Positions 6,704-64,000 of a stretch of 64,000 nt of DNA are shown in pieces. The notes beneath the pieces were generated by a model that saw only the letters and a program-made list of their open reading frames with translations, had not been told where the DNA came from and made no database searches. The number at the start of each line of letters is the position of its first letter. Positions within the stretch are counted from its first letter, which is position 1. Where the stretch lies: NCBI GenBank assembly GCA_029010575.1, contig JAQXKS010000061.1, positions 20,580-84,579 on the forward strand. Direction: 5' to 3'. The DNA is from Bacteroidales bacterium. GTDB taxonomy: Bacteria > Bacteroidota > Bacteroidia > Bacteroidales > UBA932. The translations under genes and the position numbers were made by a program.

Positions 6704-8062
6704 CTAATTCACTTTATTGATGTTCATACTGCGCTGACGGTCATAAAAGCATTCGTGCTGATAGTCCGTAGCTATTCTGAAAGGCTCTCCCTTTTCAAAG
6801 AAGCGGGATTTAGCGACAAATAATCTCATTGTATGCTCTTTCCTCTCTCTATCTGACTGATTGAGCGTCACCAAATGTGTAAGAGGCCTGGCAATACCCT
6901 TTGCTTCTGAAGAGTTATATTCGGTAAGTACATTCTTCTCGTCATTTAACCACTCACGATTTTCGATGGTGGACTGATAGGTTACTACCATCCAAACATT
7001 CTCATCAGATGCCAAATCCTTCAGATCGTTGGCCACTGCAATGCGTTTATGCCGCTCTCCGTTTTCGCCCCATTGCCTACCTGATGAATCTGTAAGAAGG
7101 TCAAGTGAATCTATAATAATGACATCTGGATTGATTCCGTAATGTTTGCGAAAATCAGCAATACTGTTTTTTATATCTACCGTAGATACATTGCAATTGA
7201 ATTTCGGGTATGATTTCACATATAGCTTTCCGGCAATGGATTGAAGTTGTTCTTCAAATTTTGCAATATCTACATCACGAATGGTTCCAGTTTCATATCT
7301 AAAAGAATCGCATGAAACAAGGGCGGCAGAATAAGCGTTTACGGCCTCTTCTTTACTACCCTCTAACTGGAAATGTAGAACATTCAAGCCATCTACTTGA
7401 CACGCATTCTTACCTATCCATCGGGCAATATGACTCTTTCCTACGCCCGTAGGGGCCATGAAGCAAGTCAGCTGGGTGCGAAGTTCCCTTCCACCATTCA
7501 TTTCATCCAGCTCATCAATGTAGAATCGTGTAATTGGTGAACGCCTCGTATTGTCATTATGCTTTTGACGATTTTGCTTGAAACGCAAGCTAAAGGTATC
7601 GATCACATCCACAAACTCAGGCGATTTAAGGCTAAAGGATTGTGCCCATTCACAGTATTCCAGAAGCTTAGTAGATGCCTTTTCGTGCCCCTGCTTATTA
7701 TAAAGTTCACCAACTTCTTTGTAGATTTTCTGGAATTTTACCTGCTTAATGTAACTTTCCAGTTGTTCTAAAAGTTGCTCATTGCTAATGATAGATGCAC
7801 TTTCAAATATATCTTCCAATAGATTGACTACACCTTTATCATTGGCTACCATTTGTTTCAGAATACTATATGATGGAGCTTGCTTATACTCTTTATAATA
7901 GGAGTATATGCAGGTGTGAAGCTTGATAAAATCTTTATCAGGCAGGAAATTCTTATGTATATGCTCCATTACAATTGCAAGAATGTACTCATTCTGCATG
8001 CAAGTGAAATAGACATCCATCAAGAATTCTTCCGTCAAGACACTATTTTGTTGATTCGCCAT
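6704..8062 (-). CDS. DnaB-like replicative helicase
   Basis: Walker A FMAPTGVGKSH, Walker B VIIIDSLDLL. Size is about 450 aa with a helical N-terminal domain. Adjacent to primase. Confidence 0.7.
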   Translation of the reverse strand: MANQQNSVLTEEFLMDVYFTCMQNEYILAIVMEHIHKNFLPDKDFIKLHTCIYSYYKEYKQAPSYSILKQMVANDKGVVNLLEDIFESASIISNEQLLEQLESYIKQVKFQKIYKEVGELYNKQGHEKASTKLLEYCEWAQSFSLKSPEFVDVIDTFSLRFKQNRQKHNDNTRRSPITRFYIDELDEMNGGRELRTQLTCFMAPTGVGKSHIARWIGKNACQVDGLNVLHFQLEGSKEEAVNAYSAALVSCDSFRYETGTIRDVDIAKFEEQLQSIAGKLYVKSYPKFNCNVSTVDIKNSIADFRKHYGINPDVIIIDSLDLLTDSSGRQWGENGERHKRIAVANDLKDLASDENVWMVVTYQSTIENREWLNDEKNVLTEYNSSEAKGIARPLTHLVTLNQSDRERKEHTMRLFVAKSRFFEKGEPFRIATDYQHECFYDRQRSMNINKVN

Positions 8063-8636
8063 ATTCTACTCTGATCCTGTATAGTTCCGGGTATTTTTTG
8101 CCCGTTTCTAACTTGCATTGATTAATGAAGTTGCACTGCACACAAGCCTCAGATATAGGACTCCACCCTAATGTGGATGATTGACAAATTGCATATCCAA
8201 TTTGAGAATTAAGCAACCTTAGTTTTGTAGCCTCTTCAGACTTCATAAAAATATATTTAGCCTGAGGATGCTCACTCCTATCGCTGATAAGATTAATAAG
8301 ATAGTTACGGTCAAGGCTTCGCTCTCTTAACCATTTATCTTCATAATACCTTGTGGCATGTTTTGAGTCATTGAGCCGTTTGATTGATGCGGGGCCGAAT
8401 GCTTGCTTAATTGTCCAGCTCTCTCTGTTCCTGTAGGCATAGGCCGTGCAAACGCAGAAATCAACCAGTCTTTCTTGCGTTACGGCCCCAAATTCGGATT
8501 CAAACAACTGAAGGAAGTTATCTAATGTGCGTATTGTTGCACCGCCCTGTGAAAATTTGAATGACGGATTCACCATTTTTCGCTCCACCTCTGTGAAAAC
8601 AGCGATAATATTTTTAATCCATTTTCCGTTTTCCAT
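8043..8636 (-). CDS. hypothetical protein (C-terminal CxxC..C cluster)
   Basis: Long ORF overlapping the neighbours in operon style. The track start 8639 is GTG and the ATG is at 8636. No motif recognised apart from CVQCNFINQC. Confidence 0.4.
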   Translation of the reverse strand: MENGKWIKNIIAVFTEVERKMVNPSFKFSQGGATIRTLDNFLQLFESEFGAVTQERLVDFCVCTAYAYRNRESWTIKQAFGPASIKRLNDSKHATRYYEDKWLRERSLDRNYLINLISDRSEHPQAKYIFMKSEEATKLRLLNSQIGYAICQSSTLGWSPISEACVQCNFINQCKLETGKKYPELYRIRVEYGESTK

Positions 8637-9240
8637 CACGAGTTAAATACTTCTTCATAAATTGTCTGGCCAAATACAAACGGCTCTTGACTGTTTCAAC
8701 ATTGTGTGATTTTAAGGTTCCCCTTTCATATTCAATGTCAGCTATCTCTTTCAGTGAATACCCGGCTTCTTGAAGCATCAAGGCATCACGGTGAATAGGT
8801 TTCATTTTATCGAGAACCCAAAGGATGTCATCATTATAGAAGTCTCTGTAATTGGTAACATCCATCAAATTTGCCGATGGTTTATCGGGGGCTGAAAGAA
8901 CTTCTTCATAACTTTCAATATCACGATCACAGTTTTTGGATTCCTTATCTCGATACCGCTTGCGCTCCAATTCTAACACACACCGTTTCGTCACGATATG
9001 TAGCCAAGTTCGGATTGGACGATTGGGATCATAAGTTTCTATGCCGCGATAAAAGTTGATAAGCACTTCATTGTAGTTCTCTTCAACATGGGACAAATCC
9101 CATGAATATTCCATGGTTAACTTATACACCATGTTGAAATAGGGAACTACATATTGCTGGAAGAGTTCATTGCGCTTCTTGATAACAGCTGGATCTAAAT
9201 CTCGCTCTGATCTTTCGGCACTGTGTATTTTGTTCTCCAT
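8614..9240 (-). CDS. sigma-70 family (ECF-like) RNA polymerase sigma factor
   Basis: Region-2-like YNEVLINFYRGIETYDPNRPIRTWLHIVTKRCVLELERKR. Region-4 HTH-like LMLQEAGYSLKEIADIE..VETVKSRLYLARQFMKKYL. Confidence 0.65.
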   Translation of the reverse strand: MENKIHSAERSERDLDPAVIKKRNELFQQYVVPYFNMVYKLTMEYSWDLSHVEENYNEVLINFYRGIETYDPNRPIRTWLHIVTKRCVLELERKRYRDKESKNCDRDIESYEEVLSAPDKPSANLMDVTNYRDFYNDDILWVLDKMKPIHRDALMLQEAGYSLKEIADIEYERGTLKSHNVETVKSRLYLARQFMKKYLTRDGKRKMD

Positions 9241-26901: not shown

Positions 26902-27291
26902 CTACTCTTTGTTTGGCGTTGCAAGTGTTAAATCGGTGTCAGCTGTAATCGTTCCATCCACAAAAGCATGGGCAATGCTTTTGGCGTATGCACGAAATTC
27001 CTGCATTTTATGGAATTCAGCCAACACTTCTGGATCCTCAGGCTCCAGAAGATAGTTATTGATGATTGCTTGCATCTCATTGGCATCGTACTCATTGTTA
27101 ATCAATGCGCTGACTGCGGATCTGTAATCGTTACATCCAGCTGGAAGTGATGCAGAGGCCCAACGGTATTTGTTGTTCTCATCACCATTGACCATTTCCA
27201 GATGATAATTCAAAGTGTACACAGGCATTCCAAGATGCCTCAATACTACAACTGCTTTAGGAATTTCATTTCCCTGATTCCAAGTTTTCAT
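26902..27291 (-). CDS. hypothetical protein downstream of DGR RT
   Basis: 129-aa ORF with TAATG overlap to the RT stop. Confidence 0.4.
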   Translation of the reverse strand: MKTWNQGNEIPKAVVVLRHLGMPVYTLNYHLEMVNGDENNKYRWASASLPAGCNDYRSAVSALINNEYDANEMQAIINNYLLEPEDPEVLAEFHKMQEFRAYAKSIAHAFVDGTITADTDLTLATPNKE

Positions 27292-28745
27292 TATCTCAAT
27301 ACTCTGTATTTTAGTTTATACTTATTCTTCAGTTTAATGCACTGGAAGTGGCCAGATACATAGCAATACTTCCAAAACCATTTCTTGTTTAACAATTCTG
27401 ATGAGCGTATGGCGTAACTGTTATCGTGAACCATACCTCCCAGATAAGAATTTAAGCTGCACACATCGTGTTCCAATAGTTTGGATTGCATCTTGGTGGG
27501 TTCGTGTCCGCTACAAGCCAAATCAAAACAGAATTCGTCAAACTGTTTGAGCTTATATTTCATTGAGGCTACACTGCGATTTGATATGTATAACCTATTA
27601 GGTTTCAATACACTACCAACAAAAGCAACTCCCTTTTTAACATCCTGGATGTAAACTTTATCTGCATGTAATGTCAAATGCAAGTGTTCCTTCAACCAAA
27701 GAATAGCCTCTTTACGAATCTGTTTGATTATTTCCTTGCCATCAAATTCATCAGTAGTTGGAACAACTATGCTAAAATCATCGACAAATCTGATATATTC
27801 GCCTCCGTATTCCTTCAGTTTATGCAATATCCATTCGTCAAAGAAAGACATATAATAGTTCGCAAATAACTGACTCGTCAAATTACCAATTGGCATTCCG
27901 ATAGTGTCCGGAGCATTAAAAAGACTTTTTCTGGGATCCAGATCATCCCAGAGTCTTTCATTACCACGCTTGACGCAATATTTTTGTGGGCAGTGCATAA
28001 TGATTTTCGTGCACACATAATGAAGGTCTTCTTTATCTTCACCAATATATTTTGAATCAATGAGGTCTGAAATCATTGACTGCAAAATATTCTTATCAAT
28101 GCTCATAAAGAACGCCTTCAAATCAAACTTCCCAATATATGCCTGGCGTGTATAGTTTTGAGAAACTTTCTTGATTTTGTCCTGTAATGTTTGTACGGCA
28201 TGTAGCGTACCATAGCCAACACGACAGTTAAATGAGACATCGCCCTGAGAATGGAACCGTTCTTCGAATAAAGGGTTTAGCCTCAAACATGCCCAATGTT
28301 GGACAATACGATCACGAAAATTCGCGGCGAATACCTCCCGGAGTTTAGGGCGCGTAACTACAAAACATATACTCTTGCTTGGCTCATAGGTGTGAGACTT
28401 AACTTCTGCGGCAAGAGTGATGAGGTCATCCTCATATATTGCACGATAAAAAGTACATTGCCCGCTGGATTTCTTCTTTTTACAGCAATCCTCAAAGGCA
28501 TCTATCCAACATTGTATTTCCTTATCACTAAGTGCCGCGACTGCCCTCACATAGTTGTTGTTGTACTTGTTGTTGTTGTTCAAGTTACCATTGCTGAAGT
28601 TCATGTTCCACGCGTTGTTGGAGTTGTACTCCGAGGAGGCCGCTAATGCGTGCACTATCTTATTCTTAACTAACGCCGAAACGCCAGTGGCACGCCCATT
28701 TAATAATAAAGGAAAAGCAATACTCATAATCGTGATCAATCGCAT
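27291..28745 (-). CDS. DGR reverse transcriptase (start uncertain; reading frame contains TR)
   Basis: REVFAANFRDRIVQHW, PIGNLTSQLFANYY (DGR-type [I/L]GxxxSQ), and YIRFVDDFSIV (YxDD-class catalytic motif). Candidate starts are ATG 28745, ATG 28727 or TTG 28805. Confidence 0.85.
   Translation of the reverse strand: MRLITIMSIAFPLLLNGRATGVSALVKNKIVHALAASSEYNSNNAWNMNFSNGNLNNNNKYNNNYVRAVAALSDKEIQCWIDAFEDCCKKKKSSGQCTFYRAIYEDDLITLAAEVKSHTYEPSKSICFVVTRPKLREVFAANFRDRIVQHWACLRLNPLFEERFHSQGDVSFNCRVGYGTLHAVQTLQDKIKKVSQNYTRQAYIGKFDLKAFFMSIDKNILQSMISDLIDSKYIGEDKEDLHYVCTKIIMHCPQKYCVKRGNERLWDDLDPRKSLFNAPDTIGMPIGNLTSQLFANYYMSFFDEWILHKLKEYGGEYIRFVDDFSIVVPTTDEFDGKEIIKQIRKEAILWLKEHLHLTLHADKVYIQDVKKGVAFVGSVLKPNRLYISNRSVASMKYKLKQFDEFCFDLACSGHEPTKMQSKLLEHDVCSLNSYLGGMVHDNSYAIRSSELLNKKWFWKYCYVSGHFQCIKLKNKYKLKYRVLR
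28533..28641 (-). repeat. DGR template repeat (TR)
   Basis: 109 bp, 96/109 identical to 29259-29367. All 13 differences are A on the coding strand in this copy. Encodes an Asn(AAC)-rich peptide. Confidence 0.9.
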
Positions 28746-29155
28746 TGCTGCCGCACAATCTCCCCTCTGCCTTCGGCAACCAGATTTTTTGTTTTGCGTT
28801 CCCAACCTCCCAATTGTCGGCTAATACTTTCAATTTGGGTGAGATACGCACTTTTCTGTTTAAGACTCAGGATTCGAATATTCCCTGTCGAAGAATATTC
28901 GACAAACGCGTCCATAATAGATTTTACATCCTCCATAAATAAAATTACAGATTCGATAATTTCTAACCGAGTCTTAGCATCCGAAGTTTTCAGGGCCAAC
29001 CGAACACCACACTGGGCTTCATTGACATCCCTGATCAGTTTCCTCCCCAACTCATCGAGTGAGCGGGAATTCTTTGGGAGCCTATCGCACATCGGGATTA
29101 TCCATAGTTGGAATTGTTCCAGTTCCCGACCTACTGAACTTTGTGTTGCCTTCAT
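28736..29155 (-). CDS. avd: DGR accessory variability determinant (Avd-like)
   Basis: 139-aa predicted helical protein between VR and TR ending ..SISRQLGGWERKTK. Position and size are typical of Avd. Confidence 0.7.
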   Translation of the reverse strand: MKATQSSVGRELEQFQLWIIPMCDRLPKNSRSLDELGRKLIRDVNEAQCGVRLALKTSDAKTRLEIIESVILFMEDVKSIMDAFVEYSSTGNIRILSLKQKSAYLTQIESISRQLGGWERKTKNLVAEGRGEIVRQQCD

Positions 29156-29252: not shown

Positions 29253-32200
29253 CTAAAATGCCGCGACTGCCCTCACATAGCTGATGACGCACTTGCCGTA
29301 GTTGACCAAGGTACCATTGCTGAAGTACATGTCCCACGCGTTGTTGGAGTTGTACTCCGAGGAGGCCCAATACCACGAACCCCAATCACTCAATAATCCA
29401 GCAGCTTTGGCTTTAGCAAAAATGGCATGTGGTGTACCAACAGTATAACCCTTGCTATGATACCAATACATTCTGGCCAACTCTCCAGCACTCGGTAAAT
29501 ACCACTTATGAGCTTTGAATTTATCAGACAGAATTTCCCCTTGTCGCGTTACTGTAGGCTGATATGCGTAACAATACGAAGCTGCGGGGTAATAATACTG
29601 ACGATACTTTGCGACATTATCATTAGCTGCAATTACAGCTGCAATCAAAGTATCAAGATTTTCTTTCTCAGTTTGAGTGGAATTAGCTCCAGGAATAGGC
29701 AGATTGATACCGCTATCATTCAAAATATGGTTGCGGTGATTAATAATCTTCAGTGTTTTGGCCATACCACTTGGAATCTTATCGCCTACGGCATAAGGCC
29801 CAAGTTCCTCTGTCAAAGTTACCAGTCGAATATCTCCAGCCGCAACAGTATCTGCAAATATCTTGAAGCCCTGGGAGTCACCAGTATTTGTTTCATCACG
29901 GTAGTTTTCATCGGTCACATAACTTGTGGCCATACCACCTGATGTGATATTGGTAATTGTAACCAAATCATAAACACTATATGAAGGATCATCGCTAAGG
30001 GTAATGCCAGCCAATCCATTAGTAGCATCATTGTATAAACCCCATGCTGTTGGAGCTACCGCATCCTTCAAAGCCACCATCCTACGATCAGTTGGATCAT
30101 CGGGATTAATATAGAAACAGATTCCAATCACCGTTTTGTCTAAATCCAAATCATCAGAGTATGAGCCATCAGCATATACATAATCGCCAACTTCTGCGGG
30201 GCGATCATAAATACCGACTGATTTAGATGCACTAATTGTTGAATACGAGCCATTTTCCAAACATTCAACTTGTGCTTCAACTGTAATGAAGTCGCGCTCA
30301 CTGGAAAGGGACTGTACATGCAAGATACCCGATGCTGAATTCATTGAAATTACTCCATCCAACGAAGGTTCTGTCGCATGCCAAGTAATTTTAGTGAAAT
30401 TATTAGCATATTTAGACGATGGAGACAATGTATAAGGATAGTCCTTGTTAGCCTCATGCGTATAGGTATTACCTGCTACATTAACGCCAGTCAAGAATGT
30501 TTTGTTGTAGTGCATCAAAAGCCCAGCATATTCTGGAGAATTTGCATCATCAACATTGCCCCACTTTTGCAATATCTTGATCTTCATTGCAAAAGTAATG
30601 GTTGATTGCACACCCGTTTCAGCCATTGTTATTTCTCCGGCCAAATTACAATTAGGAATCGTTGTTAGCCAATTAAGCATATTTGTAGATGCAGCTGGCC
30701 AATTCAAATTCTCTATTTTGATTGTAGAAATTGGAGCATTGGCATTATAGGCCCCAAATACCATTGAATAAGTATTAAAAGAACCAATGTTTCGACCAAT
30801 TTTGATAGATGATAAATATTCATATCCGTCCAAAGTTAATGAACTCAGATTTGGAACATTATCAATACTCAACAATGTCAATTTGGCGGGCAACTGGACA
30901 GTTGTCAGATTCTCAGACTCAGGCAGTGTAACTTCTACGAAGCTTGTACCAGAAAGTTTAATTGTATTGGCTCTAATCAACTTACTTCCATCAAACGAAC
31001 CGCGAATACCAACGCATCCATTCAAATTGATTGAATTCAATCCTGTTGCGTTATCAATTACAAACTGCTGAGGGCGGAATGCTGGTACTTGTTCACCTGT
31101 TTCCTGGTCTGTATAGAATATGGAAGGATTAGCTATAAAAGAAGTCAAACGCTTACCCTGAAGGGTGAAGGTTGAATCTGCCTTACAACTAATATTTCCC
31201 ACATTGCCGAAACTACGATAATAGTTGGATGCAAAAATTGCCACGCCGGTATCACCATTTACATTACCCAAATTGAAATGATATGTTTCACCAGGAGCAA
31301 GTCTCACATGAGGATCAATAGTATTGCCTCCGATATTGGCAGTAGGATAGATATACTGATGAGGTGTGATGTCAATGGCATAAGCAGCCGTTGTGCCATC
31401 CGGATTCGGATACCCTTGGAAACCAAATGAAGCAGCGGTATCATCAAGACCAACCGAACCAGTAGTTGCATATTCAAAATCACCCCAGCGTGCATACGAT
31501 GCGGCATATACAAGCCTACGCTTCATATATTGTTTTTCGGATTCTAACTGATCGCCAAGAGACTGAGTAAGAGGAGGCACAGCACGGCCACCCGTTGAAA
31601 CAAAACCAAGAGATGCTGGGTATTCGTAACGGATACGGGCCTGTTCATTCCAAGCAATAGCTGGGAAGTATCTTTGGACATTGAAGAAATACTTATGGAG
31701 GAATCCCCAAGGAGTAGTTTTCTGCGTCTGGGTGAGATCTCCCAGGTCATCGTTAGCACTTACCAAACTACACATTGCAGTAAATATGGAGTGCATCATG
31801 TCCTGAAGTTCGCGGGTGTTCTCATACATTAATTCACAAAGATTGAACAAGGTATTTGCCCCACCTTCATAAAGTGAAATGTTGCTACCTTCCGCATACG
31901 GGTGCATACGGTCAATGTAATACGGCTTAGTATTGCGACCTGTATTATCAGTAGGCAAGATAGTATCAAGGTCATCCTGATGCAGCTCAAATAGTTTAGT
32001 GGCCGGATCGATGACATAATAGGTATTTTTCGAGCAGTTGTCCGTTCCAGCGAGGAAGAAGTTTACATACGCATAATGGAATTGGAGGGAGCGTACATTA
32101 AAATGACTTCCGATATTTTGTTTGGCATGTACCACCAAGGCATCAATAAAGGCTTGATTCAAAGTTGCATAGTTACTTTGGTTATCGGCGGTAATTGCTC

Positions 32201-35200
32201 CAGAAGTAATCGGATCAGTCTGAAGATTACGAACTTCATAAGCTCCAGACTCAGGTGTGCCTTTCCACATACCAGCATGAACCCAAGTTTCCGTCACCAT
32301 ATCATAACGGAACAAGCAATACTTATAAGTACCTTGGGTGAGCCAGTAAGCCATTGTTTGATCAAGGGCCGTATCAACCATAAAGTTTTCATAAGTATTG
32401 TTATAATAAGTTATTCGAGGGTTATGCCAATAAAGGAAATTCCAAGCTGCTGAAATCAAAGCTACTGTGGAATCTATTGGAACCTTAACCCCATCAACCT
32501 TGTGCGTCATGGATTTGTCAAGGTCAATATTAACCGACTCTGCATCAGGATAGCCCCAACCATCTACCTCTCCATCTGAAACATGCGCCTTAACATTGTG
32601 ATCCCAAGGAACACGCATATCTGTAAGCGGGTAGTTATTCTCAGCACCCTCAATCATACAAAAATCAGTATGTGCTGAATTCTTTTTGTCGAATCCCCAA
32701 GTAACATCATCCATCTTGCCAGGGCCAAATGTACATGCCCCACGATATACCGGTTCATCGGTTTCTTTCTCCTGTACAAAGAAGAAGAATGGCTCCGTAT
32801 ATTTAGCGACTCTCGCCTTGTTAGCAGAAGTCTGAAGGGAATTACGACCAACTACAGCGGTATGGAGATCGTTATAAGAACTTACACCTCCGCAAAGATG
32901 ACTGTGCATCGATGAAGCATAATTAATCTTGTTGACCATCTTCTGACCAAGGGGAACGCTCGCCGCAACTTGATAACCATTACCACGATACATTCCATTG
33001 CCATCAATCCAACCATCTACAACATTGATAGATTCCCCATCTTCATTGATGCTGTATGTACCGCTTATGTTGCCGCCCGTAAGAGTAACTGTTCCATCTC
33101 CATTATTTACAACGGTGATAGAGTTGTGAATCTTTGATAACAAAACAGGTATCTTAAACTCAACATCCTTAATTTTGGTCTGAAGGTTGGAATAAAAGTA
33201 TGTGTTTGCCGTAGAGCCTTGACGAGATACCACCAGACAAGATACGCTGTTGTCTTCCAGATAAGCAAGATAGGAATCCTTACAAATTGTACCTGAATAT
33301 TCAGGTAAATAGTTGCCGTTAGAATCATACTGATAAATTTCCCAATAGCCCTTCTGCTTAGACGAAAGCATCTGATACGGTTCTACACCATGCCAGATAA
33401 GCACACGCTTGCCATTGCCACGCACACCAGCTACAGAAATCAATCCGGTTGCTTCATCAGTGATTGCATTTTCTTTGCGGACTTGCAATTTATCGGCAGA
33501 AGTAGGCAGCGTAGCAATATAGTTCTTTATAATATTGGTAGCTGAAAGCTGTTTATTCGTATAACATCTCAGCGAATATATATCAATGTCAGCAGAATCA
33601 GAACCGATAACGATACCCCCGTTGCTCAATGCTGCTGAGCAGAATTCATTGTAACGATTGGTGGCGAACTGGAACTCACGATTAACCTTGCCGTTAATGA
33701 GTACGCGCACCAAACTCATAGGGGTGGCTCCGGTCTGGGCAACGACTGAGTGGTTGATATTGATGCTGATATGTGTTCGTACATCTTCACGCCAAGACCA
33801 ATCCTGCTGTGCTTCTACATTGTTTGATGTAGTAAGCAAGAAACCCCTCATTGCATTCATACGAAGGCCTATCATCGTACCGGCAGCATTTGTTTCGTTG
33901 ATTCCCAAGATCTGATTGTTCTCAGGATCCGTTACATTGCGCACTTTGAAGTCCATTTCAAAAGTCATGGATGATTCAGGGTTACTCAGATATTGTGCGA
34001 ATGGATTATACTCAATAGTTATCCTTTGCCCGGCCAATACTCGCAATACTTTCTGGCTGTCATCGCTACTTACAATCCATCCATCATTTACACCTGAAAA
34101 ACCTACCCAAGTAGAAGGAATAACCGCATTGTTATTGCGAGCATTTAGAATTCTCTGATAGTTGGCTTCAGAATTGTTACGAACTTTCGGATTAAGCAAG
34201 AAAGTGGAACCGCTGGTAGGTGCAAATGAATCAGAGTTATCTACCGTAATACTCACCATGTCGCTGCCAGTGGAATCAGCCAAAATGTCTGACTTACCAA
34301 CAACTTCACCATCTATGTTGGTAATCATACGCCATACATGCAAATATGCGTCATAGCTGGATGCTTCTTCTGCACTTTCAGAAGCGGGTTCGATTTCCAC
34401 CGTCACATTCAAATCATTTCGCGTATTAGTATGCACGATTTCCTCCACTCTTAGATACTCTACCAAATTAGCATCTGTCATAGCATCCTCAGAATAGTTG
34501 CTTATGATAAAAGCCAAATTCAAGCTGGCCTCTGTATCTAAAACAATTTGACCATTATCATCAATCTTCGGTACGAAAATGGCATAACCACAAAGAGATG
34601 TCTGTACATAATTGACTACCTCACTCTTCATCTCTTGAAGCATCAGATAGGATTTTGTACGCTGGGCTTCAGTTGCTGTTTCATTGTTAATGACCATAAA
34701 ACGATTGACCAGCAAATCACTGGAAATCGTATTGCCATCACCATCCTCGCAAGTCAGCCAGGCGGTCACGGTATGAACTCCATGTGTCAAAATGCCATAT
34801 CCAGTTTGCTCTGCAATCACGCGGGCAAAGTTTTCAGTAGTATATTGTGTAGTCCCCAACTCATATTCCAATATCAGATCCTGTGTAAAACCAGATATTT
34901 TTACATGAAGGGTTTTGTTTACTGCACCATAAACCTGATAGGCAAACGAGAAGCCTCCATCAGCCGCATTAATAGGCACATTGTAATTTTGCTGATTGAC
35001 AACATATAATGAAGTCAATACGATACTACTGAAGACCAATCGTCCAGTAACCCCCGTTTCAAGACCTGTGGCCTGAATACGCACTTGGTTCGAACCGGCA
35101 GAAAGATATTGGGTAATGTCATACTCAGTATAGCTATTAGGGTTATCCGGATCAAAGGTAAATCCCTGTGTTGAAGCCTGGAAGGAACCCTTAGTTATCC

Positions 35201-35573
35201 ATTCACCTACAGAATACACCTGTATCTGTACATTTACTATTTCAGCAGTATCAGAGCCACCTTGCACTGAAGTGAACCTCAAATGCACCTTAGCCTTGCC
35301 ATCAGTTTTGATAATACTGTCCGTATTATCAGGTGTCAGGATAGACACTGTTGTATCAGCACCCGGAAGAGTGATGATATTATTGATAGGATCGTAAGGC
35401 GTTGTTCCCTGTACCACTCGGTAAACCGCCTTGCGCTTCACTTCAATCATATCATTCTGCAACTCTATAGCTGCATTGATAAGAGTATTGAACTCTGCGG
35501 CTGACAGTTTACCGGCTGGGGTTGTACCGCCGTTTTCGACCTTACCAAGTAAGTGAGAAATGTCGATTGCCAT
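29253..35573 (-). CDS. giant multi-domain tail fibre / adhesin, DGR target (CotH-like region, LRRs, C-terminal DUF1566/C-type-lectin-like VR domain)
   Basis: 2106-aa ORF. GTDNCSKNTYYVIDP..ELHQDDLDT (CotH-like). NLTTVQLPAKLTLLSIDNVPNLSSLTLDG (LRR). HKWYLPSAGELARMYWY..WYWASSEYNSNNAW (DUF1566-like), ending in VR. Confidence 0.75.
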   Translation of the reverse strand: MAIDISHLLGKVENGGTTPAGKLSAAEFNTLINAAIELQNDMIEVKRKAVYRVVQGTTPYDPINNIITLPGADTTVSILTPDNTDSIIKTDGKAKVHLRFTSVQGGSDTAEIVNVQIQVYSVGEWITKGSFQASTQGFTFDPDNPNSYTEYDITQYLSAGSNQVRIQATGLETGVTGRLVFSSIVLTSLYVVNQQNYNVPINAADGGFSFAYQVYGAVNKTLHVKISGFTQDLILEYELGTTQYTTENFARVIAEQTGYGILTHGVHTVTAWLTCEDGDGNTISSDLLVNRFMVINNETATEAQRTKSYLMLQEMKSEVVNYVQTSLCGYAIFVPKIDDNGQIVLDTEASLNLAFIISNYSEDAMTDANLVEYLRVEEIVHTNTRNDLNVTVEIEPASESAEEASSYDAYLHVWRMITNIDGEVVGKSDILADSTGSDMVSITVDNSDSFAPTSGSTFLLNPKVRNNSEANYQRILNARNNNAVIPSTWVGFSGVNDGWIVSSDDSQKVLRVLAGQRITIEYNPFAQYLSNPESSMTFEMDFKVRNVTDPENNQILGINETNAAGTMIGLRMNAMRGFLLTTSNNVEAQQDWSWREDVRTHISININHSVVAQTGATPMSLVRVLINGKVNREFQFATNRYNEFCSAALSNGGIVIGSDSADIDIYSLRCYTNKQLSATNIIKNYIATLPTSADKLQVRKENAITDEATGLISVAGVRGNGKRVLIWHGVEPYQMLSSKQKGYWEIYQYDSNGNYLPEYSGTICKDSYLAYLEDNSVSCLVVSRQGSTANTYFYSNLQTKIKDVEFKIPVLLSKIHNSITVVNNGDGTVTLTGGNISGTYSINEDGESINVVDGWIDGNGMYRGNGYQVAASVPLGQKMVNKINYASSMHSHLCGGVSSYNDLHTAVVGRNSLQTSANKARVAKYTEPFFFFVQEKETDEPVYRGACTFGPGKMDDVTWGFDKKNSAHTDFCMIEGAENNYPLTDMRVPWDHNVKAHVSDGEVDGWGYPDAESVNIDLDKSMTHKVDGVKVPIDSTVALISAAWNFLYWHNPRITYYNNTYENFMVDTALDQTMAYWLTQGTYKYCLFRYDMVTETWVHAGMWKGTPESGAYEVRNLQTDPITSGAITADNQSNYATLNQAFIDALVVHAKQNIGSHFNVRSLQFHYAYVNFFLAGTDNCSKNTYYVIDPATKLFELHQDDLDTILPTDNTGRNTKPYYIDRMHPYAEGSNISLYEGGANTLFNLCELMYENTRELQDMMHSIFTAMCSLVSANDDLGDLTQTQKTTPWGFLHKYFFNVQRYFPAIAWNEQARIRYEYPASLGFVSTGGRAVPPLTQSLGDQLESEKQYMKRRLVYAASYARWGDFEYATTGSVGLDDTAASFGFQGYPNPDGTTAAYAIDITPHQYIYPTANIGGNTIDPHVRLAPGETYHFNLGNVNGDTGVAIFASNYYRSFGNVGNISCKADSTFTLQGKRLTSFIANPSIFYTDQETGEQVPAFRPQQFVIDNATGLNSINLNGCVGIRGSFDGSKLIRANTIKLSGTSFVEVTLPESENLTTVQLPAKLTLLSIDNVPNLSSLTLDGYEYLSSIKIGRNIGSFNTYSMVFGAYNANAPISTIKIENLNWPAASTNMLNWLTTIPNCNLAGEITMAETGVQSTITFAMKIKILQKWGNVDDANSPEYAGLLMHYNKTFLTGVNVAGNTYTHEANKDYPYTLSPSSKYANNFTKITWHATEPSLDGVISMNSASGILHVQSLSSERDFITVEAQVECLENGSYSTISASKSVGIYDRPAEVGDYVYADGSYSDDLDLDKTVIGICFYINPDDPTDRRMVALKDAVAPTAWGLYNDATNGLAGITLSDDPSYSVYDLVTITNITSGGMATSYVTDENYRDETNTGDSQGFKIFADTVAAGDIRLVTLTEELGPYAVGDKIPSGMAKTLKIINHRNHILNDSGINLPIPGANSTQTEKENLDTLIAAVIAANDNVAKYRQYYYPAASYCYAYQPTVTRQGEILSDKFKAHKWYLPSAGELARMYWYHSKGYTVGTPHAIFAKAKAAGLLSDWGSWYWASSEYNSNNAWDMYFSNGTLVNYGKCVISYVRAVAAF
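29259..29367 (-). repeat. DGR variable repeat (VR), last 37 codons of the 2106-aa ORF
   Basis: Counterpart of TR. It differs only at TR-adenine positions. The stop codon lies 3 nt after the repeat end. Confidence 0.9.
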
Positions 35574-60132: not shown

Positions 60133-60222
60133 TTAGGTAGTTATTATTATTGGTTGGTAGCGGGTTTGTCGAAAGATAAATCCGCTATTTCTATGCTATT
60201 ATCATATTTTTTCAAAATATGT

Positions 60223-60269
60223 TTTGGAAATAAGTTTCAGTTTCATATATTTGCACCAGAAACTGAAAC
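60223..60269 (+). promoter_or_regulatory. promoter (TTTG-19 nt-TAtaTTTG) whose -7 box is bracketed by a perfect 11-bp inverted repeat (operator-like)
   Basis: TTTG 60223-60226. TATATTTG 60246-60253. GTTTCAGTTTC 60234-60244 is the exact reverse complement of GAAACTGAAAC 60259-60269. ATG of the recombinase at 60280. Confidence 0.5.
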
Positions 60270-60279
60270 AAATAAAGAT

Positions 60280-60873
60280 ATGGCTAAGAAAAATCAGCTC
60301 ACAACAAGTGATTATTTGCCTTACGAGGAATACCAAAAATTGCTGGATGGTCTGCACAAGGACAAGAATTATAAATGGGAACTGTACGCAAGACTTTCAT
60401 TCTGCACCGCTTGCCGAGCCTCCGATGTATTGAATTTCAAATGGAGTGACATTTTACGCCATTCCCAAATCACCGTTGTTGAGAAAAAGACAAAAAAGAC
60501 TCGCAGCATTATCTTTAATGAGTCCGTTCAAAAAAAGATAGCCGAGTTGTACAAGCTCCTTGGCTCCCCGAATATCGATGAGTATGTTTTTCAAAGCTGC
60601 GCAAAAGACCATACTACAGCCTGGAGCATACAATATATCAATCGTAAGCTGAAGGAATTCAAGAAAAAATACAAACTTAAAATAACAAATTTTTCAACAC
60701 ATACTTTCCGCAAGACCTTTGGAAGATATGTGTATGAAAAGAACAACCGTAATGCAGAGAGCCTGATTCTTCTCAATAAGATTCTTAATCATTCCAGCAT
60801 AGAAATTACCAAAACCTACATTGGTATTACTCAGGATGAAGTGAATTCAATCTTTAACTCCATCCAGTTCTAA
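60280..60873 (+). CDS. short tyrosine recombinase (197 aa, catalytic domain only)
   Basis: FCTACRASDVLNFKW (Arg I), THTFRKTFG (His-x-x-Arg), LNHSSIEITKTYI (His ... Tyr nucleophile). ATG 60280 chosen; the upstream part of the track ORF is promoter sequence. Confidence 0.75.
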   Translation: MAKKNQLTTSDYLPYEEYQKLLDGLHKDKNYKWELYARLSFCTACRASDVLNFKWSDILRHSQITVVEKKTKKTRSIIFNESVQKKIAELYKLLGSPNIDEYVFQSCAKDHTTAWSIQYINRKLKEFKKKYKLKITNFSTHTFRKTFGRYVYEKNNRNAESLILLNKILNHSSIEITKTYIGITQDEVNSIFNSIQF

Positions 60874-61821: not shown

Positions 61822-62364
61822 ATGGTAAAGTTAACTAAAGAACAACTTCAAGAAGCATTGAAGAAACCTATCCTCACCTGTTCAGAGGAAGAAATTCGTT
61901 TTGCCCTTCACATTATGGGGTTTGATCTGAAAGAGTACCACCAGGATCAGGGGCGTGTAGCCTTTGAAATCCACTTCCGCAGAATCTATGTCATCAAGAT
62001 GGAAGTGACTGGAGGTATTATCACCTTCAGCAACCGATGGGTGGTATTCAACGACAAAGAGGAAATACACCACCTCAATTTCGAAGAGCCGGAAAATCTC
62101 ATCCTCATCCTCAATCTTTTCATCAACCTGTTTGGCAAGGCACTTCTGGAGCCTATCGGCTATCAGCCCGCCTACATCAAGGAATGGAGTTTGTTTGAGA
62201 CTGGCGAAGAAGCAAAAGAGTTCTGGCAGACATTCCAGACCGTGCTGAGGGAGGTTTGCCCGCCAGCCGAACCCACAGAAGTCAAGCCCGAAACAGCCGC
62301 TGCTCCGCAGCATAAAAAGCCGGGTAAGGGCACGAAGAATTCTAAAAAGAAGATCCTTAGTTAA
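61822..62364 (+). CDS. hypothetical protein
   Basis: 180-aa ORF with a basic C-terminal tail. Confidence 0.4.
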   Translation: MVKLTKEQLQEALKKPILTCSEEEIRFALHIMGFDLKEYHQDQGRVAFEIHFRRIYVIKMEVTGGIITFSNRWVVFNDKEEIHHLNFEEPENLILILNLFINLFGKALLEPIGYQPAYIKEWSLFETGEEAKEFWQTFQTVLREVCPPAEPTEVKPETAAAPQHKKPGKGTKNSKKKILS

Positions 62365-62372
62365 GGAATAGT

Positions 62373-62445
62373 GAGAAAATCCGTCCGATTGTCCACGAAA
62401 TTGTGAAAAATTCACAGAATCGTGAAAAATCGGACGGAAAATGCT
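62373..62445. promoter_or_regulatory. long imperfect palindrome upstream of the initiator operon
   Basis: tccgtccgatt 62380-62390 is the exact reverse complement of aatcggacgga 62428-62438. Inner arms are tgtgaa/ttcaca around 62409, with further partial pairing. Confidence 0.45.
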
Positions 62446-62536
62446 CACTTAGCGAGATTCATTAAATTCTCTTAATTTCTTCTCATTTCTAAAACATTCT
62501 ATTCATTTTACCTCTATTCTAATAAAATAACAGGAT

Positions 62537-62722
62537 ATGGAGAACGAAACATTATTCAAACGCAGAATGTCTGATGAAGAAATGGCCGCTGCTTTTGTGG
62601 AAATCACCCAACGAAATGCTAATCCCAATGCAGTAGGGAGATTTGCGAAAAAGAACGGCTATCAGCGTATCAGACAAGTAGAAAATGGGCAACCCATCTA
62701 TTATTACATCAAACAACAATAA
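62537..62722 (+). CDS. small hypothetical protein
   Basis: 61-aa ORF preceded by a CTATTCTAAT box 13 nt upstream of the ATG. Confidence 0.35.
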   Translation: MENETLFKRRMSDEEMAAAFVEITQRNANPNAVGRFAKKNGYQRIRQVENGQPIYYYIKQQ

Positions 62723-62723
62723 A

Positions 62724-64000
62724 ATGGCAACACCGGACATCATTCCATACAGCCAACATTATCGTTGCTATCGTCAAATGATCAACGGTACAAGCACACA
62801 GGCCGTATTGGAATATATCTTTGACGAGTACCTGGCCCGCGCCAAAAGGGGCAGGTCTGGGGAGTTCACCATCAAGTACAACCAAATATCCAATAACTGC
62901 AACCTAAAGTGGGAAACGGTAAAAACCCAGGTGGAAAAACTGGAAAGGATGAAATTGATTACGCTTGATGCTGATGGTGCATGCCTATTTCATGAAAATA
63001 TTTTCACCAACCTTTGCTATGCTTTTATAAAATTAAGCAGCAATAAAGCACGAGAAGAGTTTGCTTGCGCTTTAGAGGCTGGAGATTATGAGAAATTGGC
63101 ATCACTTGGGTATAATACTCTCCAAAATCGGATAGTATTATCCAAAAACGGAGAAGGTTCTCCAAAATCGGATAACATTATCCAAAATCGGAGAGATGTA
63201 TCCAAAAATGGATATGCCTATCCAAAATCGGATACTTATTCCCGTATATTCTTATCCAAAATCGGAGAGATGTATCCAAAATCGGATATATTTGACCTCC
63301 TTTTCGATGAACTTTCTCCTATTTTTGGGGTAGAAGAAGCTCAAAAAGCTATAGAAGACATCTATTCTGGGAAGCCTTTGGAATATAGCCCCATTTATTT
63401 TCATATTTTGGGAGTTTTGACACTGGAAAAACTATCCAAAATCGGATATGAAACTATCCAAAATCGGATAACTAAAATAAATAATAAAAGAGAAGTTACT
63501 TCTCTTTCTTCTGAAGAAGAAATAGAAGATAACCAAGAGAAAGAAGATAATATGGGAAACTCATCGTTTCCCGACAATAACGGATTTGAAGATGTTGAAC
63601 TGCTTCCAGCAATTAAAATAAATCAAGAAGCAATCAACCAGGCCAAGAGAAAAAAGAATCTACCGTTCCTCACCAGTTCCGAAATGGATATGTTTACACA
63701 AAGTCCCGATCTCGTTGTTGACAGACCGGATGCTTTGTTCATCTTCCAGCTTTGGACAATACTTAAAGAGTACTTCACCCAGGAGGTAGAAGATGAAGAT
63801 GGTAATGTTTCCGAAAAGCAGATAAATCCCGATGGCCAATACATCCCAGTCGAAGTCTTCCTCAAAAATATTTTAGGCCCGGCCTTTGAAGCAACTGAAA
63901 GTGCAATCCAGATGGGCAAGTTAGAGTGCGAGAAGGGAACCTTCCAACTTAGCATTCCACAGGACTTCCAGCTTTCCGTTAACGATATGTTTATGATACC
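62724..64000 (+). CDS. replication-initiator-like protein containing the iteron array (lambda O-like arrangement); 3' end beyond window
   Basis: My codon-by-codon translation from ATG 62724 finds no stop to the window end (425 codons). Not in the ORF track because no stop is present. Functional call rests on the embedded iterons plus AT-rich tract. Confidence 0.5.
   Translation, partial: MATPDIIPYSQHYRCYRQMINGTSTQAVLEYIFDEYLARAKRGRSGEFTIKYNQISNNCNLKWETVKTQVEKLERMKLITLDADGACLFHENIFTNLCYAFIKLSSNKAREEFACALEAGDYEKLASLGYNTLQNRIVLSKNGEGSPKSDNIIQNRRDVSKNGYAYPKSDTYSRIFLSKIGEMYPKSDIFDLLFDELSPIFGVEEAQKAIEDIYSGKPLEYSPIYFHILGVLTLEKLSKIGYETIQNRITKINNKREVTSLSSEEEIEDNQEKEDNMGNSSFPDNNGFEDVELLPAIKINQEAINQAKRKKNLPFLTSSEMDMFTQSPDLVVDRPDALFIFQLWTILKEYFTQEVEDEDGNVSEKQINPDGQYIPVEVFLKNILGPAFEATESAIQMGKLECEKGTFQLSIPQDFQLSVNDMFMI
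63121..63290 (+). repeat. iteron array, copies 1-8 of (A)TCCAAAATCGGA(T/G)A
   Basis: The 12-mer starts at 63121, 63141, 63161, 63181, 63201 and 63221 (exact 20-bp phase), then at 63255 and 63275. Copies 2 and 5 each carry one mismatch. Confidence 0.85.
63435..63470 (+). repeat. iteron copies 9-10
   Basis: TCCAAAATCGGATA at 63435 and 63457, in the same orientation. Confidence 0.85.
63469..63556 (+). other. AT-rich / polypurine tract following the iterons (candidate DNA-unwinding element)
   Basis: taactaaaataaataataaaagagaag...gaagaagaaatagaagataaccaagagaaagaagataata. Confidence 0.45.

What the first reader, a model, noticed from the sequence alone, without database searches (positions are those of the whole stretch)
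63121..63556. Iteron-type replication origin embedded in an open reading frame, with the same DNA motif read in all three frames
There are ten same-orientation copies of (A)TCCAAAATCGGA(T/G)A. Six sit at an exact 20-bp phase (63121-63232), two more at 63255 and 63275, and two at 63435 and 63457. An AT-rich/polypurine tract follows at 63469-63556. The whole array lies inside a 425+-codon ORF (62724 to the window end) that stays open. Because of the 20-bp phase, the motif is translated as LQNRI, SKNGE, SPKSD, IQNRR, SKNGY, YPKSD and so on. The conservation is therefore at the DNA level, not the protein level. This mirrors lambda ori inside gene O: iterons plus an AT-rich region within the initiator gene.
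Basis: partly seen in the sequence, partly recalled or inferred. Interest (0 to 1): 0.7.

Follow-up and report, generated by a model that had tools for sequence, protein, structure and literature searches.

The report
Replication origin inside its initiator gene
A large Bacteroides phage carries what is very probably its replication origin (ten protein-binding DNA repeats plus an easily melted A-rich stretch) inside the gene for the protein that most likely binds it, a lambda-style layout found here in an unnamed, apparently unrelated protein family.

Summary
Ten same-strand copies of TCCAAAATCGGA (eight exact) lie at 63121-63468, six of them in strict 20-bp register, inside an ORF that stays open, and an A/purine-rich tract follows.

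Eight gene lineages from metagenomes and Bacteroides prophages keep the same layout (about six sites at 20 bp, +34, +20, about 160, then 22-23 bp), but each has its own dyad-symmetric, A-tract-centred motif. Synonymous sites are conserved across the iterons and the A-rich tract (75-81% third-position identity) and not in the folded domains (34-43%). Iteron identity follows the N-terminal winged-helix-like domain, not the C-terminal domain. Nearly identical phages have swapped an "N-domain + iterons" cassette. The least stable DNA of the gene begins at the last iteron in every lineage, as in lambda. The cumulative GC-skew minimum falls on the array.

The protein has no Pfam, PHROG, NCBIfam or PDB match and no detectable homology to lambda O or SPP1 gp38, yet the family has about 157 clusters. 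I call it a new member of a known kind, an origin within its initiator gene. No experiment has yet shown replication starting here. Confidence is about 0.78 and interest is moderate.

The parts
62724..64000 (+). Putative replication initiator gene. It is cut off by the window end. The full length is 588 aa in the 98%-identical P0001/L001.
   Evidence: Open for 425 codons. It is the only frame without stops in all 8 loci examined. Seven homologues were found by the word-indexed search and 157 cluster representatives by the exhaustive profile search. No Pfam, PHROG or NCBIfam hit.
62724..63116 (+). N-terminal domain (codons 1-131), winged-helix-like. It is the inferred iteron-binding specificity module.
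   Evidence: The AF2 model shows H-beta-H-H-beta-beta topology with pLDDT 61-89. The top PDB fold hits are all wHTH regulators but weak, with E >= 0.04. Family members give weak Pfam hits to HTH_Crp_2, HTH_36, HTH_24 and MarR, and one to Phage_rep_O. Its sequence relatedness tracks iteron identity.
63120..63234 (+). Iterons 1-6, (A/C)TCCAAAATCGGA(T/G)A, start-to-start spacing exactly 20 bp. Each site has dyad arms ATCC/GGAT around an A-tract.
   Evidence: The segment encodes residues 133-171, which the model predicts as disordered, pLDDT 30-37. Synonymous sites are conserved.
63254..63288 (+). Iterons 7-8, both with exact cores. They lie 34 bp after iteron 6 and 20 bp apart.
   Evidence: The +34, +20 arrangement recurs in L005, L008/L010 and L001/L003.
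63289..63433 (+). Protein-constrained helical segment between the iteron groups (motif ..IEDIYSG..L.YSP.YF..). It sets the roughly 160-bp gap.
   Evidence: The residues are conserved across the family. Model helices have pLDDT 54-72. Third-position identity is only 53%, against 75-81% in the iteron segments.
63434..63470 (+). Iterons 9-10 (exact cores, 22 bp apart), next to the A-rich tract. They are the likely core initiation sites.
   Evidence: A distal pair or triplet at 22-23 bp spacing is present in every lineage. This segment has aa identity 46% but nt identity 74% against L005.
63467..63556 (+). A/purine-rich, easily melted tract, the putative DNA unwinding element. It contains a 10-nt-arm palindrome, AAAGAGAAGT/ACTTCTCTTT, at 63487-63507.
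   Evidence: 74% A+T, 67% purine, top 0.1-0.2% least stable windows of the 64 kb, and the window's purine maximum. Palindrome: (I8, I2). Folded as single-stranded DNA it gives z = -2.5. Third-position identity is 81% against L005. The same position relative to the last iteron is seen in 8 lineages and in lambda.
63621..64000 (+). Start of the C-terminal domain (from about codon 300), cut off by the window. It is the inferred replisome-recruitment module.
   Evidence: It is the most conserved part of the family. It occurs alone as a 275-aa protein in L017/L018. It has no Pfam or PDB match. Its sequence is uncoupled from iteron identity.
62344..63484 (+). Exchangeable specificity cassette: intergenic region, 61-aa ORF, N-domain and the whole iteron array. 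Coordinates are mapped from L003.
   Evidence: L003, L004 and L007 are 95-100% identical in DNA outside the span from about -380 to +760 nt relative to the start codon, and about 50% identical inside it.
62537..62722 (+). Conserved 61-aa ORF directly upstream, inside the swapped cassette. Its function is unknown. It could be a co-factor or a regulator.
   Evidence: It is present in every lineage that has upstream sequence. Identity between lineages is 39-48% (92% to the close relative L003), with the motif VGRFAKK.GY.R.RQ..NG. No Pfam or PHROG hit.

Best explanation
Window 63120-63556 is most likely the phage's replication origin, lying inside the gene for its own origin-binding initiator.

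Inferred mechanism: dimers of the N-terminal winged-helix-like domain bind the ten dyad-symmetric, A-tract-centred iterons. The sites are 20 bp apart, so successive sites sit on nearly the same face of the helix, and the DNA is gathered into a bent or wrapped nucleoprotein complex. Stress from that complex, probably helped by transcription through the gene, melts the adjoining A/purine-rich tract at 63467-63556. The C-terminal domain then recruits the phage's own replisome, which includes a DnaB-like helicase (6704-8062), a Toprim primase (5656-6702) and Pol III alpha.

The iteron and A-rich segments encode disordered linker peptide. This lets their sequence be set by DNA function while the reading frame stays open.

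Shown here: the repeats, their geometry, DNA-level purifying selection, co-variation with the N-domain, cassette exchange, local duplex instability, and the position of the skew minimum.

Inferred, not shown: protein binding, melting, helicase recruitment and origin firing.
For: The repeats are real and specific.

The frame stays open in all 8 loci examined while every other frame is closed.

The same layout with a different motif in each lineage is seen across eight lineages. The motifs are confined to the gene, with 0-1 copies in 3-63 kb of flanking DNA.

Synonymous-site conservation is 75-81% in the iterons and A-rich tract against 34-43% in the domains. Cores are 91% identical and spacers 61%.

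The iteron follows the N-domain and not the C-domain. L003, L004 and L007 share a 98-99% identical C-domain but have three different iterons. L005 has the window's iteron (one nucleotide different) with a C-domain only 34% identical.

The cassette swap has sharp boundaries just after the last iteron.

The N-domain has wHTH-like topology, and the iteron-coding segments are predicted disordered.

The least stable 60 nt of the gene starts within -40 to +4 nt of the last iteron in 8 lineages and in lambda. The tract ranks in the top 0.2% of the window.

The cumulative GC-skew minimum falls in the 63-64 kb bin, and the skew changes from -0.013 to +0.089 inside a block of genes on one strand.

In the viral structure library, a full-length match is named 'Replication initiator A family protein' (E = 7e-8), and the weak tail is rich in names such as replisome organizer and replication protein.

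The phage has a helicase, a primase and a polymerase but no other recognisable initiator in the window.

Documented precedents: lambda ori lies in the middle of gene O (PMC7466680; annotated iterons). SPP1 oriL lies within gene 38 (PMC6316719).
Against: There is no experimental or read-depth evidence that replication begins here.

The protein has no significant similarity to any characterised initiator: hhalign against lambda O gives probability 0.14%, against SPP1 gp38 1.2%, and the PDB profile search finds nothing.

The fold evidence for a winged helix is weak, with best E = 0.04 and a model mean pLDDT of 61.

The GC-skew evidence rests on a composite of two 98%-identical contigs and only 10 kb to the right of the site.

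Two relatives lack the array: the most distant full-length homologue, L009, and the proteins of L017/L018 that consist of the C-domain only. The array is therefore not obligatory for the family.

The window covers only part of the genome, so another origin elsewhere cannot be excluded.
Confidence: 0.78

Rival explanations
1. The repeats are cis-acting binding sites for the encoded protein but serve a function other than replication initiation. Candidates are a partition (centromere-like) site, a packaging recognition site lying in its own gene as some pac sites do, or transcriptional autoregulation by roadblock.
For: Everything showing DNA-level constraint and co-variation with the N-domain fits any cis-site/binder pair equally well. 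The protein has no significant homology to known initiators. From my own knowledge, not tested here: centromere and pac sites can also be repeat arrays, and some pac sites lie inside the small terminase gene.
Against: A conserved, synonymously constrained, least-stable A-rich tract with a palindrome directly after the last iteron is an origin feature, and it is not expected for partition, packaging or operator sites. The cumulative GC-skew minimum coincides with the site. No iteron-like operator exists in the 700 nt upstream in 9 loci examined. No ParA-like or terminase gene is recognisable next to it. The gene lies among early and DNA-metabolism genes (ligase, dUTPase, recombinase, methylases) and is far larger (588 aa) than small terminases. 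The names of structural neighbours lean towards replication.
Confidence: 0.1
2. It is an origin, but the iterons are bound by a different protein, for example the co-swapped 61-aa upstream ORF product or a host factor, and not by the N-terminal domain of the ORF that contains them.
For: The 61-aa ORF lies inside the exchanged cassette and diverges between lineages about as much as the N-domain does: 39-48% against 35-43%. Co-variation alone therefore cannot separate the two candidates.
Against: The N-domain has a wHTH-like fold and weak wHTH Pfam hits. The 61-aa protein has no recognisable DNA-binding signature. The documented precedents, lambda O and SPP1 gp38, have the gene's own product binding the internal sites.
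Confidence: 0.07
3. The periodicity reflects a repeated peptide (a structural protein repeat) or recent tandem duplication without function, not a DNA element.
For: Three 20-bp units make 60 bp, which gives a 20-residue peptide periodicity. TRF also reports period 60.
Against: The same 12-15-nt core is read in all three frames, giving unrelated peptides. Later copies lie at +34, +160 and +22 bp, which are not multiples of 3. Synonymous positions are conserved while amino acids are not. The segment is predicted disordered. Unrelated motifs occupy the same geometry in other lineages. Neutral duplication would not keep cores at 91% and spacers at 61%.
Confidence: 0.01

Closest known systems
Bacteriophage lambda (lambdoid) ori-lambda within gene O
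   Same: The origin lies in the middle of the initiator's own gene (PMC7466680). The iterons are dyad arms around an A-tract: lambda has TCCCTCAAAACGAGGGA and this phage has ATCCAAAATCGGAT. All sites point the same way and are spaced 20-24 bp in lambda against 20-22 bp here. The arrays begin at a similar place, gene nt 349 in lambda and 397 here. An A/purine-rich least-stable tract and then a palindrome follow directly. The iterons lie in the linker between an N-terminal DNA-binding part and a C-terminal part. From my own knowledge of lambdoid phages: N-terminal/iteron specificity modules are likewise exchanged among relatives, which matches.
   Different: There is no detectable protein homology (hhalign probability 0.14%; only 1 of 35 members touches PF04492, at E = 0.0056). 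The protein is twice as long (588 against 299 aa). There are ten iterons in a 6+2+2 layout with a strict 20-bp register, against four in lambda and six in Stx phages. The host is Bacteroides. The phage is a roughly 100-kb tailed phage with a tail sheath gene that encodes its own DnaB-like helicase, primase and Pol III alpha and does not borrow the host's. No P-like loader is recognisable next to the gene.
Bacillus phage SPP1 oriL within gene 38 (origin-binding protein gp38)
   Same: Direct repeats plus an AT-rich DNA unwinding element lie within the gene for the origin-binding protein (PMC6316719). A phage-encoded DnaB-family helicase is part of the system.
   Different: There is no significant homology: hhalign probability 1.2%, E = 0.046, limited to the wHTH stretch. 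The SPP1 gene 38 repeats are short and spaced 9-11 bp, not a 20-bp phased array. gp38 is 256 aa. SPP1 has a second origin, oriR.
Iteron-containing plasmid replicons (RepA/pi/TrfA-type Rep proteins)
   Same: Arrays of directly repeated initiator-binding sites about two helical turns apart lie next to an AT-rich unwinding region, and the initiators are of the winged-helix type (general knowledge; review PMC4980987 listed, not read).
   Different: In plasmids the iterons normally lie outside the rep gene. There is no sequence relative of this protein in 72,556 plasmid records or among PDB chains. The element here is a phage or prophage.

Membership tests
Lambda-type origin (ori inside initiator gene O) | Initiator-binding iterons located within the initiator's own coding sequence, with the frame kept open | tested here: met
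   Ten iterons lie inside the ORF, and only that frame is free of stops in all 8 loci.
Lambda-type origin (ori inside initiator gene O) | Iterons with internal dyad symmetry, all in one orientation, about two helical turns apart | tested here: met
   ATCC-N6-GGAT on the + strand only, with 20 and 22 bp spacing. Lambda's annotated iterons are spaced 20, 24 and 23 bp.
Lambda-type origin (ori inside initiator gene O) | AT-rich unwinding region directly flanking the iterons on the downstream side | tested here: met
   The least stable 60-nt window of the gene starts +2 nt from the last iteron here, and +3 nt in lambda. The tract is in the top 0.2% of the window and is conserved at synonymous sites. 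Actual melting was not tested.
Lambda-type origin (ori inside initiator gene O) | Initiator homologous to lambda O (Pfam PF04492 Phage_rep_O) | tested here: not met
   hhalign of the family profile against lambda O gives probability 0.14%. The window protein has no Pfam hit. One of 35 members reaches E = 0.0056.
Lambda-type origin (ori inside initiator gene O) | Adjacent P-type helicase-loader gene that delivers the host DnaB | tested here: inconclusive
   The downstream ORFs (66, 160, 60 and 135 aa in L001) have no Pfam or NCBIfam identity. The phage encodes its own DnaB-like helicase 55 kb away.
Lambda-type origin (ori inside initiator gene O) | The N-terminal part of the initiator binds the iterons, and replication starts at the site | not testable with these tools
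   Only indirect support: co-variation of the N-domain with the iteron, the cassette swap and the GC-skew minimum.
SPP1 gp38/oriL-type origin | Initiator homologous to gp38 (annotated in the record as a DnaD-like helicase loader) | tested here: not met
   hhalign probability 1.2%, E = 0.046.
SPP1 gp38/oriL-type origin | Direct repeats plus an AT-rich DUE inside the origin-binding protein's gene | tested here: met
   SPP1 description from PMC6316719.
Iteron plasmid Rep proteins (RepA/pi/TrfA; WH1-WH2) | Sequence or structural homology to tandem winged-helix Rep initiators | tested here: not met
   No hit in the PDB profile search. Foldseek against the PDB gives only generic wHTH regulators at E >= 0.04. 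tblastn against the plasmid collection finds no match.
Small terminase / pac site within own gene | The gene lies next to the large terminase in the packaging module, and the protein is of TerS size and fold | tested here: not met
   The gene lies in an early DNA-metabolism operon on the opposite strand from the structural module. It encodes 588 aa with no terminase family hit, and no terminase is recognised nearby.

The most novel reading that the evidence does not exclude
This is an independently evolved (convergent) lambda-type origin. An initiator family unrelated to O, gp38 or plasmid Reps has arrived at the same solution: dyad iterons centred on A-tracts, an A-rich unwinding tract and a palindrome, all encoded in a disordered linker of the initiator's own gene. 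The 6+2+2, 20-bp-register geometry, which is kept while the motif itself turns over, would specify a defined origin nucleoprotein complex. The family's naturally swapped cassettes, with at least eight specificities, would give a readable recognition code between a winged-helix domain and its iteron.
Probability: 0.35. Interest if true: 0.6.

Novelty: new member of a known kind. Interest (0 to 1): 0.45.

Why it matters
It assigns a probable function (origin-binding initiator) and a probable origin to an unnamed protein family of about 157 clusters, found in large Bacteroides phages and prophages. These are gut viruses for which I found no described replication origin in the searchable literature.

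The family is a natural experiment. Closely related phages differ only in an "N-domain + iteron" cassette, and at least eight cognate protein/site pairs share one geometry. That makes DNA-recognition specificity, origin incompatibility between co-infecting phages, and the constraints on dual-use (coding plus cis-acting) sequence directly testable.

The practical uses are origin annotation, replication-based activity estimates from metagenome read depth, and candidate ori/Rep modules for Bacteroides genetic tools.

It does not reveal a new mechanism. The design is the one known from lambda and SPP1.

Tried and rejected
(1) A protein-only test for DNA motifs read in several frames, applied across the 157-member family. 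It was underpowered: the known positives P0001-P0006 scored only z = 1-2. I abandoned it and draw no conclusion from it.

The narrower alignment A4 worked.

(3) Homology to known initiators: the PDB profile search, Pfam, PHROGs and NCBIfam, hhalign against lambda O and SPP1 gp38, and tblastn against 50,697 phage and 72,556 plasmid records. All were negative or far below threshold.

(4) An autoregulatory operator upstream. The 2-mismatch site at 62423 looked suggestive, but no lineage has an iteron-like site within 700 nt upstream, so I treat it as chance.

(5) Peptide-repeat explanation: rejected.

(6) Pac-site or partition explanations: not supported by gene context, but not formally excluded.

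(7) The C-terminal domain fold gave no PDB match. I ran no further search on it.

(8) The most distant homologue, L009, was searched for a diverged array. It has only three copies of TTTTTYNWAACTGGG and a long polypurine run, and I do not interpret these.
Full report
OBSERVATION. The 12-mer TCCAAAATCGGA occurs ten times on the + strand. Six copies start at 63121, 63141, 63161, 63181, 63201 and 63221, in exact 20-bp register. Two more start at 63255 and 63275, and two at 63435 and 63457. Eight copies are exact, one has one mismatch and one has two. No other copy with <=1 mismatch exists on either strand of the 64-kb window, and 0 of 100 dinucleotide shuffles reach the observed number of <=2-mismatch hits. 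Tandem Repeats Finder reports period 20. The ORF from 62724 stays open for 425 codons to the window end. In gene nt 300-900 its frame has no stop, while the other five frames have 7-18. The core is read in all three frames (LQNRI, SKNGE, SPKSD, IQNRR...). The tract at 63469-63556 is 74% A+T and 67% purine. It contains the purine-richest 80 nt of the whole window, and it ranks in the top 0.1-0.2% of least stable duplex windows. The other top-ranked windows fall in or next to gaps between ORFs.

CONTEXT. The window is part of a large tailed phage. Structural genes (portal, head protease, tail sheath, tape measure) and a full replication set lie on the - strand from 461 to 55937. The replication set comprises a split Pol III alpha, a PIF1-like helicase, a Toprim primase, a DnaB-like helicase, SbcCD and NrdD. 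From 56147 onward a + strand block encodes a dUTPase, an NAD-dependent ligase, a tyrosine recombinase, small ORFs and the ORF in question. Relatives occur on 98-107 kb viral contigs and on a 320-kb Bacteroides sp. 224 scaffold, so the group includes Bacteroides prophages. The only DNA-level match among 50,697 phage records is a weak integrase hit to Bacteroides phage BS-TP1.

THE PROTEIN. The ORF product has no Pfam, PHROG or NCBIfam hit, no sequence relative in the PDB, and no tblastn match in the phage or plasmid collections. It is still not an orphan. A word-indexed search found seven homologues of 588-697 aa, and an exhaustive profile search found 157 cluster representatives, 64 of them at E <= 1e-30.

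The alignment shows four parts: a moderately conserved N-terminal domain of about 130 aa, a hypervariable middle, a short conserved helical segment, and a well-conserved C-terminal domain of about 270 aa. An AlphaFold model (mean pLDDT 61) gives the N-domain the H-beta-H-H-beta-beta topology of a winged helix, with pLDDT up to 89. It predicts the iteron-coding segments as disordered: residues 132-173 and 219-319, pLDDT 25-47.

Foldseek against the PDB gives no significant hit (best E = 0.04), but the top of the list is dominated by winged-helix DNA-binding regulators. Pfam scans of 35 family members give only weak hits, nearly all to wHTH or HTH DNA-binding families, including one to Phage_rep_O at E = 0.0056. 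Against predicted viral structures, the second-best full-length match (E = 7e-8) is named "Replication initiator A family protein". The weak tail is rich in names such as "replisome organizer" and "replication protein". These names come from automatic annotation and count only as soft support.

THE DECISIVE COMPARISON. I fetched the DNA encoding the homologues. Eight gene lineages carry an array at the same place in the gene with the same layout: about six sites in 20-bp register, a +34 and a +20 step in four of the lineages, a gap of about 160 bp, and a distal pair or triplet spaced 22-23 bp. Each lineage has its own motif:
- window, L001 and L003: TCCAAAATCGGA
- L005: TCCAAAATTGGA
- L004: TATCAAATATCTGATA
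- L007: TGTCAAATGACA
- L008, L010 and L019: TGTGCAGAAATGCACA
- L013 and L014: CTGCTAAATAGCAG
- L015 and L020: TTCTCACAAATGTTAGAA
- L016: TGTCGAAAAACCGACA

Every motif is a pair of inverted arms around an A/T-tract. In each locus the motif is confined to the gene, with 0-1 copies in 3-63 kb of flanking DNA. The gene frame is the only open frame in every locus examined.

DNA CONSTRAINT, NOT PEPTIDE CONSTRAINT. I compared the window lineage with L005, codon-aligned. The N-domain has 61% aa, 64% nt and 43% third-position identity. The C-domain has 32%, 47% and 34%. The main array has 61% aa but 79% nt and 75% third-position identity. The distal pair has 46% aa but 74% nt and 77% third-position identity. 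The A/purine-rich tract has 81% third-position identity. Iteron cores are 91% identical and the 8-nt spacers 61%. Synonymous sites are therefore under selection in the iterons and the A-rich tract and nowhere else in the gene.

CO-VARIATION AND CASSETTE EXCHANGE. Iteron identity follows the N-terminal domain. Only lineages with N-domains at least 61% identical share a motif, and all other pairs (17-48% identical) have unrelated motifs. Iteron identity is uncoupled from the C-domain. L003, L004 and L007 have C-domains 98-99% identical but three different iterons. L005 has the window's iteron, one nucleotide different, with a C-domain only 34% identical. At the DNA level, L003, L004 and L007 are 95-100% identical on both sides and about 50% identical in one cassette. 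That cassette runs from about -380 nt to gene nt +760 and ends immediately after the last iteron. It contains the upstream intergenic region, a conserved 61-aa ORF, the N-domain and the whole array. The A-rich tract and the C-domain belong to the shared backbone. This is the behaviour expected of a binder and its cognate sites exchanged as one unit.

UNWINDING ELEMENT AND SKEW. In all eight lineages the least stable 60-nt window of the whole gene begins between -40 and +4 nt from the end of the last iteron. The same computation on lambda gene O gives +3. Most tracts contain AAATAA-type runs on the coding strand, followed in most lineages by a short palindrome. In the window that palindrome is AAAGAGAAGT/ACTTCTCTTT at 63487-63507, and the tract folded as single-stranded DNA gives z = -2.5. 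I joined the window to the 98%-identical L001 contig to see 10 kb beyond its end. The cumulative GC-skew minimum of the 74.5-kb composite lies in the 63-64 kb bin. Within the + strand gene block, skew is -0.013 to the left and +0.089 to the right of the array, so the change is not only the strand switch at 56 kb. This is suggestive and not decisive.

COMPARISON WITH KNOWN SYSTEMS. Lambda's origin lies in the middle of gene O and consists of O-binding iterons plus an AT-rich tract. Lambda has four iterons and Stx phages have six (PMC7466680). In the lambda record the iterons start at gene nt 349 and are spaced 20, 24 and 23 bp. They read TCCCTCAAAACGAGGGA and are followed by AAAAGAAAAAAGAAAAGA and a palindrome. 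The design matches this locus point for point. SPP1 oriL (direct repeats plus an AT-rich DUE) likewise lies within gene 38 and is bound by gp38 (PMC6316719). Homology does not follow from this likeness. hhalign of the family profile gives probability 0.14% against lambda O and 1.2% against SPP1 gp38. I therefore file this as working like a lambda-type origin without being a member of the O, gp38 or plasmid Rep protein families.

RIVALS. A cis-site with another function (partition, packaging or roadblock autoregulation) explains the constraint and the co-variation. It does not explain the conserved least-stable A-rich tract with its palindrome, the skew minimum, the gene's place among DNA-metabolism genes, or the lack of any promoter-proximal operator in 9 loci examined. 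I give it about 0.10. Binding by the co-swapped 61-aa protein instead of the N-domain cannot be excluded by co-variation alone, and I give it about 0.07. A peptide repeat or neutral duplication is excluded.

EXCEPTIONS. The most distant full-length homologue (L009) has no phased array. L017 and L018 encode the C-domain alone, as a 275-aa protein with no array nearby. In L015/L020 the distal cluster is inverted relative to the proximal array. The C-domain is thus an independent module, and the in-gene origin is widespread in the family but not universal.

VERDICT. It is a new member of a known kind, an iteron origin embedded in its initiator gene. It sits in an unnamed and apparently unrelated protein family of Bacteroides phages, and the naturally swapped specificity cassettes are an unusually clean feature. 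Confidence that it is an origin bound by its own gene product is about 0.78. Interest is 0.45.

Noticed in passing
window 461-5659 (- strand): DNA polymerase III alpha is encoded as two separate ORFs. 3953-5659 carries the PHP domain and the N-terminal part. 461-2632 carries the finger and HHH domains. A PIF1-like helicase ORF (2622-3956) lies between them.
   Followed up: no
window 27291-28805 (-) and 29253-35573 (-): A reverse transcriptase (RVT_1) ORF lies next to a 2106-aa ORF. This may be a diversity-generating retroelement aimed at a large structural protein.
   Followed up: no
window 62537-62722 (+): A 61-aa ORF directly upstream of the initiator is conserved in every lineage with upstream sequence (39-48% identity between lineages; motif VGRFAKK.GY.R.RQ..NG). 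It lies inside the exchanged specificity cassette. It has no family hit and its function is unknown.
   Followed up: partly
L003 / L004 / L007, about -380 to +760 nt relative to the initiator start codon (window about 62344-63484): Three contigs that are 95-100% identical on both sides differ by a sharply bounded cassette of about 1.1 kb. This indicates recent recombinational exchange of origin specificity among co-circulating phages.
   Followed up: yes
L017 4010-4837 and L018 (IMG/VR contigs 3300028886_000125 and 3300032007_000061): The C-terminal domain of the family occurs alone as a 275-aa protein in a similar neighbourhood (dUTPase, short tyrosine recombinase). There is no N-domain and no repeat array nearby.
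   Followed up: partly
L009 165-2258 (P0007): The most distant full-length homologue has no 20-bp array. It has three copies of TTTTTYNWAACTGGG (L009 761, 823, 1044) and a long AAGAAAAAG polypurine run encoding a K/E-rich linker.
   Followed up: partly
L015 / L020 gene nt 442-865: In this lineage (a Bacteroides sp. 224 prophage) the distal iteron cluster (spacing 22, 22, 23 bp) is in the opposite orientation to the proximal array. In L016 the central A-tract flips to a T-tract between copies.
   Followed up: no
window 8614-9240 (-): A phage-encoded ORF with a sigma-70 region 2 domain lies beside the replication genes.
   Followed up: no
window 60154-60873 (+): A short (195-239 aa) tyrosine recombinase is conserved upstream of the initiator in all long loci. 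Its size is more typical of an Xer-like resolvase than of a full phage integrase, yet one relative sits in a 320-kb Bacteroides scaffold.
   Followed up: no
window 62423-62434 (+): A 2-mismatch iteron-like site (TGAAAAATCGGA) lies in the intergenic region upstream of the 61-aa ORF. I judge it to be chance, because no lineage has a cognate iteron-like site within 700 nt upstream.
   Followed up: yes
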